Shown: positions 17,633 through 18,469 of the stretch, one piece after another
Numbering within the stretch: the stretch's first letter is position 1
How the letters are laid out: the number at the start of each line of letters is the position of its first letter
Source of the DNA: Adineta vaga
Taxonomy: Eukaryota > Animalia > Rotifera
Assembly (NCBI GenBank): GCA_021613535.1
Contig: CP075495.1
Location: forward strand, 11,966,001-12,030,000
Reading direction: 5' to 3'
DNA length: 64,000 bases
Notes under the pieces: generated by a model
Database searches by the model: none
What the model was told of the DNA's origin: nothing
What the model saw: only the letters and a program-made list of their open reading frames with translations
Position numbers and translations under genes: made by a program

Positions 17633-18027
17633 TAGAACTAGTACAAACATTGCTGCAATTACATAAAAAATATGTTAATTTCTTATTCAACAGAAATAAA
17701 ATCTATTTTTATTTGATAGGATGGTGTTGTTAGTGCTGCTGATAGTCGATGTACTGTCGGAAACATCATCTTTAATAATAATGTTTTAAAAATTCATCGA
17801 TTATCGGACAATATTTATGCACTTAGGGTAGGAACATCAGCTGATTGTGATTTTTAAACGCCTTTATTTCATCGCAACTGTGTTCATCCTCATAGAAGTG
17901 TTGCATTTCTTCTATTTGTTGCTTCAGGTTCAAATGGTTATACATCATTATCTGTTATTGAAGATCGTTTCAAAGAAAATATGACCGTAAGATGTTTTCT
18001 TTGTAGGAAGATGAAGCAAAACAATTA
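17633..18027 (+). pseudogene. 20S proteasome beta subunit (beta2/PSMB7-like) pseudogene
   Basis: TSTNIAAIT*K|DGVVSAADSRCTVGNII...KIHRLSDNIYA..GTSADCDF*; an internal deletion after FISSQL; then VHPH..SGS..SLSVIEDRFKENMT|EDEAKQL. In-frame stops, and a shrunken 20-nt intron at 17987-18006. Confidence 0.8.
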
Positions 18028-18469
18028 AAAGAAATGGAAAATGATCCACCACCATTATGTGCAGTAAGCCCAGTTGATCCAACGAAAGATATGTTCAATT
18101 GAATTGGTTCAATTCATGGTCCGGAGGGTTCACCATTTTAAGACGGAATTTTTTCATTTAACTATACATTTTCCTACTGATTTTCCATTTAAGCAACCAC
18201 GAGTTCGTTTTACTACTCGTGTTTATCATCTAAATATAAGTTCTCAAAGTGATATTTGTCTCGATATTCTTCACGATAAATGGTCGCCCGTTTTAACAAT
18301 TCGAACAGTTCTTTTAAGTTTCTGTTCATTATTAACAGATCCAAATCCTGAACATGGATTAGATAATGAAATTCTCAATGTATATCGAACGAATAAAAAA
18401 CAATACGAAGAAAATGCAAAAGAATGGACAAGATAATATGCAATCGCCAATCAAGAAATCTCATCTTAG
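18025..18469 (+). pseudogene. Ubiquitin-conjugating enzyme E2 (UBE2D/UBC4-like) pseudogene
   Basis: [28 protein letters not shown] / [57 protein letters not shown]. Stop at 18100, frameshift near 18140-18155, HPN changed to HLN. Confidence 0.88.

What the first reader, a model, noticed from the sequence alone, without database searches (positions are those of the whole stretch)
17633..18469. Proteasome beta-subunit fused in-frame to an E2 ubiquitin-conjugating domain (pseudogenised)
One exon reads EDEAKQL (proteasome beta2 helix, cf. EEEAKxL) straight into KEMENDPPPLC (start of a UBE2D-like E2). A Ntn-protease/E2 fusion is not a standard architecture. Either the parent is a genuine beta-subunit-E2 fusion gene, which would tether a ubiquitin-conjugating activity to the 20S core, or a deletion joined two tandem genes. 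The beta sequence also looks divergent from canonical beta2, hinting at a specialised paralogue.
Basis: partly seen in the sequence, partly recalled or inferred. Interest (0 to 1): 0.7.

Follow-up and report, generated by a model that had tools for sequence, protein, structure and literature searches.

The report
Dead proteasome–E2 chimera from repair join
This is an ordinary dead gene in a bdelloid rotifer: a broken copy of a proteasome subunit gene is joined to a broken copy of a separate ubiquitin-conjugating enzyme gene at a short sequence the two happen to share, likely by error-prone DNA repair, so it likely never made a working fusion protein.

Summary
The junction is real: DNA contigs from two studies bridge it. 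It is not a remnant of a beta2–E2 fusion gene. Both parents are ordinary stand-alone Adineta vaga genes: beta2 I4U23_027004 and a UBE2D-like E2, I4U23_026970. Both encode xKQL, and their contigs overlap at 18017–18027: 9 nt of exact microhomology with the intact beta2, up to 11 nt. A second, unfused beta2 copy shares the 17855 stop (inferred from the contig graph), the internal deletion and the shrunken intron, but continues as beta2 after 18027. So beta2 was likely dead before it met the E2. The window copy has five premature stops, frameshifts and a non-canonical splice donor; the E2 half has diverged about neutrally. The only PF00227+PF00179 protein among 367 fetched is this locus's own gene model, stitched around the stops. 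The beta2 is not a specialised paralogue: 39 of 45 residues match the ordinary A. vaga beta2. Two further microhomology-marked deletions lie within 5 kb. Verdict: chimeric pseudogene, likely from microhomology-mediated repair. Low interest.

The parts
17599..17669 (+). Beta2 pseudogene exon: end of propeptide and start of mature chain. Frameshift near 17625-17628; Thr1 codon kept (17643-17645); Gly(-1) is Ser and Thr2 is Asn; stop at 17664-17666 where the parent has Tyr
   Evidence: tblastn with P0038; codon listing; parent transcript contig fits 17625-17669
17670..17719 (+). Retained 50-nt beta2 intron whose donor reads AT, not GT. Its presence shows a DNA-level copy, not a retrocopy
   Evidence: Parent transcript contig skips 17670-17719, ends AT..AG (table 5)
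17720..17866 (+). Beta2 exon piece (Asp17, Lys33 and Gly47 equivalents kept), premature stop at 17855-17857
   Evidence: PF00227 hit; 39 of 45 residues identical to P0038; 19 differences in 147 nt to the parent transcript contig
17867..17880 (+). Scar of an internal beta2 deletion: 14 letters stand where the intact transcript has 161 (49 codons lost net). The two ends share 8 of 9 nt
   Evidence: table 5 and loose end at 17866
17881..17986 (+). Beta2 exon piece VHPH...ENMT
   Evidence: 9 differences in 107 nt to the parent transcript contig
17987..18006 (+). Intron remnant of 20 nt (48-56 nt in 8 of 8 intact bdelloid-type beta2 loci measured), likely too short to splice
18007..18027 (+). Last beta2-derived stretch (EDEAKQL). 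The following 87 residues of beta2 are absent
18017..18027 (+). Junction overlap: 11 nt fitted by both the E2 parent and the sister beta2 copy; 9 nt exact with the intact beta2 transcript
   Evidence: tables 7 and 8
18017..18469 (+). Intronless UBE2D-like E2 pseudogene lacking its first 8 codons: stops at 18100, 18139, 18434; 1-nt insertion at about 18149; HPN reads HLN; catalytic Cys codon 18257-18259 kept; natural stop 18467-18469
   Evidence: groups with P0076 in the tree, 95/88 support
18470..18545 (+). 3' flank that still matches the E2 parent transcript contig; the match ends at 18545
   Evidence: X16 record 12, loose end at 18545
16999..17598 (.). Unidentified upstream block also present in a second, diverged copy at the same depth as the sister beta2; left boundary at about 16999
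   Evidence: tables 4, 5, 7, 8; no Pfam hit for its ORFs
18605..20517 (.). Second copy (97% identical) of the FMO 3' end plus a fucosyltransferase gene, directly downstream; the first copy is at 12615-13848

Best explanation
It is a dead chimeric pseudogene: a broken genomic copy of the ordinary bdelloid proteasome beta2 gene is joined to a copy of a separate UBE2D-like E2 gene at a 9-11 nt sequence both share, likely by microhomology-mediated repair, and it likely never encoded a working fusion. Likely order of events: (1) beta2 was copied at DNA level, with its introns (shown). (2) The copy took a stop, a 49-codon deletion and an intron deletion (lesions shown; that they came first is inferred from an unfused sister copy that shares them). 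(3) In one descendant the DNA was joined to the E2 at the shared xKQL codons, which lost 87 beta2 residues and 8 E2 residues (overlap shown; the repair pathway, MMEJ or a template switch, is inferred). (4) Both halves then decayed without selection (lesions shown; neutrality inferred from 15 listed differences). The in-frame join is a by-product: the shared letters are in the same reading frame in both parents.
For: Junction bridged in 2 of the 2 non-RNA runs laid. E2 parent contigs (X2, X3, X20) fit from 18017 and run upstream into MSLLRCL; the sister beta2 contig (X2, X3) fits to 18027 and runs on into ARDALYTSTT; the intact beta2 transcript (X17, X20) has its normal helix. The sister spans 17830-18027 in one piece, so it has the internal deletion and the 20-nt intron. 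It branches from the window copy only at 17860, so it shares 17830-17859 with the stop (inferred from de Bruijn contig geometry). Parents are stand-alone proteins. xKQL is the normal state of both: 20 of 24 full-length beta2 fetched have AKQL; 12 of 17 E2s shown have xKQL[K/R], 2 are annotated from a later Met and 3 belong to a sister clade. E2 half vs parent: 12 non-synonymous or nonsense and 3 synonymous among 15 listed of 17 differences, over about 162 and 45 sites. Chance of 9 or more shared nt at a given junction is about 1e-4 at 30% GC. A perfect 9-nt microhomology flanks a 687-nt deletion 5 kb upstream. Microhomology deletions of 5-14 bp are described in A. vaga (PMC2861651, passages).
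Against: The sister's position is unknown (paralogue or very divergent allele), and that it shares the 17855 stop is inferred, not read. Two of its 16 differences are unlisted and may fall in the overlap, so the exact length (9-11 nt) is open. Beta2 exon 17720-17866 shows a synonymous excess (10 of 16 listed), so that donor lineage was functional for some time or is an older homoeologue. No whole genome was held, so synteny could not be tested. Protein searches list only top hits, and no beta2 search above 412 aa was run.
Confidence: 0.92

Rival explanations
1. Decayed copy of a genuine, once functional beta2-E2 fusion gene that tethered ubiquitin conjugation to the 20S core.
For: The join is in frame; Thr1 and the E2 Cys survive. 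A database protein with PF00227+PF00179 exists (P0006).
Against: P0006 maps letter for letter onto six pieces of this window, skips every stop and ends in the FMO tail; it is a one-member cluster. It is the only one of 367 fetched proteins that hits both profiles. All 10 of 15 metagenome beta2 loci that contain the EDEAK exon continue into VRDAL, and 0 of 15 hold an E2 hit, though the loci are only 1-11.6 kb. The chimera lacks 136 of 241 mature beta2 residues, so it could not fold as a beta subunit (inference). The beta2 lesions are shared with an unfused sister.
Confidence: 0.02
2. Variant of the best explanation: one long deletion inside a duplicated or homoeologous segment that carried both linked genes removed everything between beta2 and the E2, rather than a template switch to a distant donor.
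For: The parents are 34 locus tags apart on one 16,930,519-nt contig. Beta2 and E2 records share the same longest-contig length in A. steineri (79,188) and Rotaria (219,296) (indirect sign of linkage). A. vaga chromosomes 1-3 are homoeologous to 4-6 with about 13% divergence (PMC8494291 section 6), and beta2 exon 17720-17866 differs by 19 of 147 nt.
Against: The E2 half is only about 7% diverged (36 of 501 nt) and looks neutral, younger than a palaeotetraploid copy. The block sits between two copies of a local FMO/fucosyltransferase duplication, more like an inserted patch. Window genes outside the beta2 piece show no convincing match to beta2 flanks in 15 loci. Which chromosome numbers the two contigs carry was not found in the paper's supplements; 2 and 5 is recalled only.
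Confidence: 0.35
3. Assembly chimera made by mis-joining reads at the shared 11-mer.
For: Short shared words can mislead assemblers; Logan contigs here include mosaics of parent and pseudogene letters.
Against: Contigs from runs of 2013 and 2022, two studies, bridge the junction with 0 and 2 differences; the overlap is much shorter than a 31-letter word; both halves carry many private lesions absent from the parents.
Confidence: 0.01

Closest known systems
Proteasome subunit beta type-2 / PSMB7 / PUP1 family (PF00227 + PF12465); A. vaga I4U23_027004 (P0038)
   Same: 39 of 45 and 28 of 33 residues identical in the two pieces; same intron positions; Thr1, Asp17, Lys33 equivalents kept; P0038's best PDB hits are beta type-7 (PSMB7) chains, E 1e-67.
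   Different: Two stops, a frameshift, AT donor, 49-codon deletion, 20-nt intron remnant and loss of the last 87 residues.
UBE2D/Ubc4-5-like E2 (PF00179), bdelloid xKQLKEMEND clade; A. vaga I4U23_026970 (P0076)
   Same: 87 of 93 residues identical, same NQEISS end, catalytic Cys kept; clade member P0064's best PDB hits are UBE2D2/D3, E 1e-58.
   Different: First 8 codons missing, three stops, a 1-nt insertion, HPN changed to HLN.
Microhomology-associated deletions in A. vaga Hebe retrotransposon copies (PMC2861651; passages read)
   Same: Joins marked by 5-14 bp microhomologies in the same species, read by the authors as MMEJ scars.
   Different: Here the join unites copies of two unrelated host genes in a gene-rich stretch, not two points of one subtelomeric transposon.

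Membership tests
Functional proteasome beta2 subunit | PF00227 homology and beta2-type sequence | tested here: met
Functional proteasome beta2 subunit | Thr1, Asp17 and Lys33 present | tested here: met
   (numbering from the alignment of P0038 to mature PDB chains)
Functional proteasome beta2 subunit | Open frame over the whole Ntn fold, Gly before Thr1, C-terminal part of the core and PF12465 tail | tested here: not met
   stops 17664 and 17855, Ser before Thr1, 49-codon deletion, last 87 residues absent
Functional UBE2D-like E2 | PF00179 domain with catalytic Cys | tested here: met
Functional UBE2D-like E2 | Open frame and intact HPN motif | tested here: not met
   stops 18100, 18139, 18434; insertion at about 18149; HLN
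Genuine beta-subunit/E2 fusion family | An intact two-domain ORF in this or a related genome | tested here: not met
   1 of 367 fetched proteins hits both profiles and it is this locus's gene model; searches show top hits only
Genuine beta-subunit/E2 fusion family | Spliced transcript across the junction | tested here: inconclusive
   Only contig-level runs of guessed RNA type were on offer
Microhomology-mediated chimeric pseudogene | Two separate intact parents | tested here: met
Microhomology-mediated chimeric pseudogene | Short sequence shared by both donors exactly at the junction, no inserted letters | tested here: met
   18017-18027; 9 nt exact with the intact beta2, up to 11 nt
Microhomology-mediated chimeric pseudogene | Repair pathway (MMEJ deletion versus template switch) and donor positions | not testable with these tools
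   no whole genome held
Processed (retro) pseudogene | Loss of introns | tested here: not met
   beta2 introns retained at 17670-17719 and 17987-18006; the E2 parent itself aligns without introns over 18044-18545, so that half is uninformative

The most novel reading that the evidence does not exclude
Right after the join, while the E2 half was still intact, the locus made a short-lived new protein: an E2 whose first helix was capped by the beta2 helix (from the in-frame Met at 17981, if the 20-nt intron remnant could splice), expressed from the proteasome gene's promoter. It would be a caught-in-the-act case of repair-driven promoter and domain shuffling in a bdelloid.
Probability: 0.03. Interest if true: 0.5.

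Novelty: new member of a known kind. Interest (0 to 1): 0.12.

Why it matters
It matters little for proteasome biology: no beta-subunit/E2 fusion enzyme is indicated. Two small uses remain. First, the public protein UJR28245.1 (I4U23_009495) presents this pseudogene as a PF00227+PF00179 protein and could mislead domain-architecture surveys. Second, three microhomology-marked joins lie within about 5 kb of a gene-rich stretch, whereas PMC2861651 (passage) reported no end-joining footprints in more than 1 Mb of gene-rich bdelloid DNA; the locus is a dated example of such repair acting on host-gene copies.

Tried and rejected
No whole genome is held for the window, so synteny, parent orientation and the sister copy's position were not tested. 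No RNA holder was listed for 17000-18600. In the four runs of guessed RNA type laid (X15, X16; X17, X20) no contig crossed the junction; this blank is not evidence on expression. Contig depths were looked at to decide whether the sister is an allele or a paralogue; they were not interpretable. A metagenome scan with the E2 alignment could not be run; the one scan went to beta2, so E2 flanks in relatives were not seen. phmmer of P0006 against 1.84 billion representatives gave 11,634 hits at E<=0.001; of the 150 listed none but P0006 hit the beta2 profile, but a fused member could hide under an unfused representative. The E2 profile search listed 120 of 6,142 hits, none with PF00227. No beta2 search above 412 aa was possible (cap reached). 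ESM Atlas gave no usable hit (no evidence either way). Three tblastx rows linking window genes to beta2 flanks were 27-28 aa at 37-39% identity and were dropped as summed-score artefacts. Pfam found nothing convincing for 12 ORF pieces at 14830-17536. Literature: 0 papers for proteasome subunit + ubiquitin-conjugating + fusion gene + chimeric gene; 4 listings for PF00227 + PF00179 and 8 for bdelloid + ubiquitin-conjugating, seen as listings only, none on such a fusion by title or abstract start. Chromosome sizes were not found in the two supplements held for PMC8494291; figures or tables not held might give them. No earlier findings of this scan matched. No fold or complex prediction was run: the sequence has no intact ORF to test.

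Full report
Observation. Six-frame translation shows EDEAKQL at 18007-18027 running in frame into KEMENDPPPLC. The upstream piece matches PF00227 and the downstream piece PF00179. The window is about 30% GC, and the database protein P0006, named Adineta vaga I4U23_009495, maps letter for letter onto it, so the organism is this bdelloid rotifer. The junction is real DNA: contigs from two studies bridge it with 0 and 2 differences.

State of the locus. The beta2 half starts at about 17599. It has a frameshift near 17625, stops at 17664 and 17855, an intron donor that reads AT, a scar where 14 letters replace 161 of the intact transcript, and an intron cut to 20 nt; the same intron is 48-56 nt in 8 of 8 intact loci measured. 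The last 87 residues are missing. The E2 half lacks its first 8 codons and has stops at 18100, 18139 and 18434, a 1-nt insertion near 18149 and HLN for HPN. Thr1 and the catalytic Cys survive. The retained introns show a DNA-level copy.

The parents. The beta2 pieces are 39 of 45 and 28 of 33 identical to A. vaga I4U23_027004 (P0038), a 270-aa stand-alone beta2 in a 32-member cluster that includes Adineta and Rotaria proteins; its best solved relatives are PSMB7 chains. The look of divergence is therefore general to bdelloid beta2, not a sign of a specialised paralogue. The E2 piece is 87 of 93 identical to A. vaga I4U23_026970 (P0076) and groups with it in a 19-row tree; the clade is UBE2D-like. 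The two parents are 34 locus tags apart on a 16,930,519-nt contig, whereas P0006 is on a 16,274,841-nt contig. Equal longest-contig lengths hint at linkage in A. steineri and Rotaria too, which is indirect.

The one two-domain protein. Of 367 proteins fetched, 48 hit a beta2 profile, 320 an E2 profile, and only P0006 both. P0006 is built from six pieces of this window (16410-16475, 17720-17848, 17930-17986, 18007-18063, 18143-18379, 18575-18733), skips each stop and ends in the FMO tail. It is a gene-prediction artefact of this locus. The searches behind this count list top hits only: 10 of 51 candidates, 13 of 15, 120 of 6,142, 150 of 11,634; beta2 proteins over 412 aa were not searched. In metagenomes, 10 of 15 beta2 loci contain the EDEAK exon and all 10 continue into VRDAL; none of the 15 holds an E2 hit, but they are short.

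The junction. E2 parent contigs fit the window from 18017 and run upstream into MSLLRCL; a second beta2 copy fits to 18027 and runs on into ARDALYTSTT. So 18017-18027 fits both donors. With the intact beta2 transcript 9 nt are exact; with the donor it may be 11. Both families normally encode xKQL there (20 of 24 beta2; 12 of 17 E2), which explains why the join is in frame. A rough chance of 9 or more shared letters at a given junction is 1e-4, although shared 9-mers exist elsewhere between such AT-rich genes (6 between one beta2 transcript and the E2 piece).

Order of events. The second beta2 copy (309-nt contig in two studies, 16 differences and 2 gaps over 17830-18027) spans the deletion scar and the short intron in one piece and is not fused. 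It branches from the window copy at 17860 and both branch contigs begin at 17830, so it is inferred to share the stop at 17855. Beta2 was thus likely broken before the join. The E2 half shows 12 non-synonymous or nonsense against 3 synonymous changes among 15 listed of 17, over about 162 and 45 sites, as expected without selection (small numbers). Against a simple story, beta2 exon 17720-17866 has 10 synonymous among 16 listed of 19 differences, so that donor is older or stayed functional longer; at 13% divergence it could derive from a homoeologue (PMC8494291, section 6 and passages). Whether the second copy is an allele or a paralogue is unresolved; 8-9% divergence is far above the 1.7% mean heterozygosity given in that paper.

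Surroundings. The block lies between two 97% identical copies of an FMO 3' end plus fucosyltransferase. The first fucosyltransferase copy lacks 687 nt between two perfect 9-nt repeats, and the beta2 internal deletion has ends alike at 8 of 9 nt. Microhomologies of 5-14 bp at deletions are described for A. vaga Hebe elements and read as MMEJ scars (PMC2861651, passages). MMEJ or a replication template switch is therefore the likely mechanism; the two cannot be told apart without the genome.

Verdict. A chimeric pseudogene made by microhomology-guided joining (confidence about 0.9). It works like nothing; it is not a member of any fusion family. No paper on such a fusion turned up in three searches (listings only). 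Novelty: new member of a known kind. Interest 0.12.

Noticed in passing
window 12615-13848 and 18605-20517: Local duplication (97% identical) of the 3' end of a flavin monooxygenase gene plus a GT10 fucosyltransferase gene. Copy 1 of the fucosyltransferase has a 687-nt deletion between perfect 9-nt repeats (13055-13063); copy 2 keeps the catalytic region.
   Followed up: partly
P0006 / UJR28245.1 (window 16410-18733): Public gene model that stitches upstream sequence, beta2, E2 and the FMO tail into one 235-aa protein; a false PF00227+PF00179 architecture.
   Followed up: yes
contigs in runs X1, X2, X3 laid on window 17009-18027: A second, unfused beta2 pseudogene copy about 92% identical. Contigs of the same depth carry a 33-nt insertion with a 6-nt overlap at 17551-17556 and an 81-nt deletion at 17602-17682. 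Allele or paralogue unknown.
   Followed up: partly
window 16999-17600: Unidentified block with a sharp left boundary at 16999 that also occurs in another context, including a run labelled as a different organism (X15); its ORFs have no Pfam hit.
   Followed up: partly
window 15695-15842: Array of degenerate 8-nt repeats arranged as an inverted pair; a similar palindrome-like stretch at 51470-51551.
   Followed up: no
window 16571-16810: GC-rich stretch with a short direct repeat near both ends, MITE-like by eye.
   Followed up: no
proteins P0064-P0223: Bdelloids appear to have an expanded clade of UBE2D-like E2s, with several copies per contig and tandem double-E2 gene models (P0200, P0201, P0005).
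   Followed up: no
window 11484-12746 and 44316-44801: Long single-exon FMO-like ORF (PF00743) and an ORF that looks like methylglyoxal synthase (recalled, not tested); both are candidates for horizontally acquired genes.
   Followed up: no
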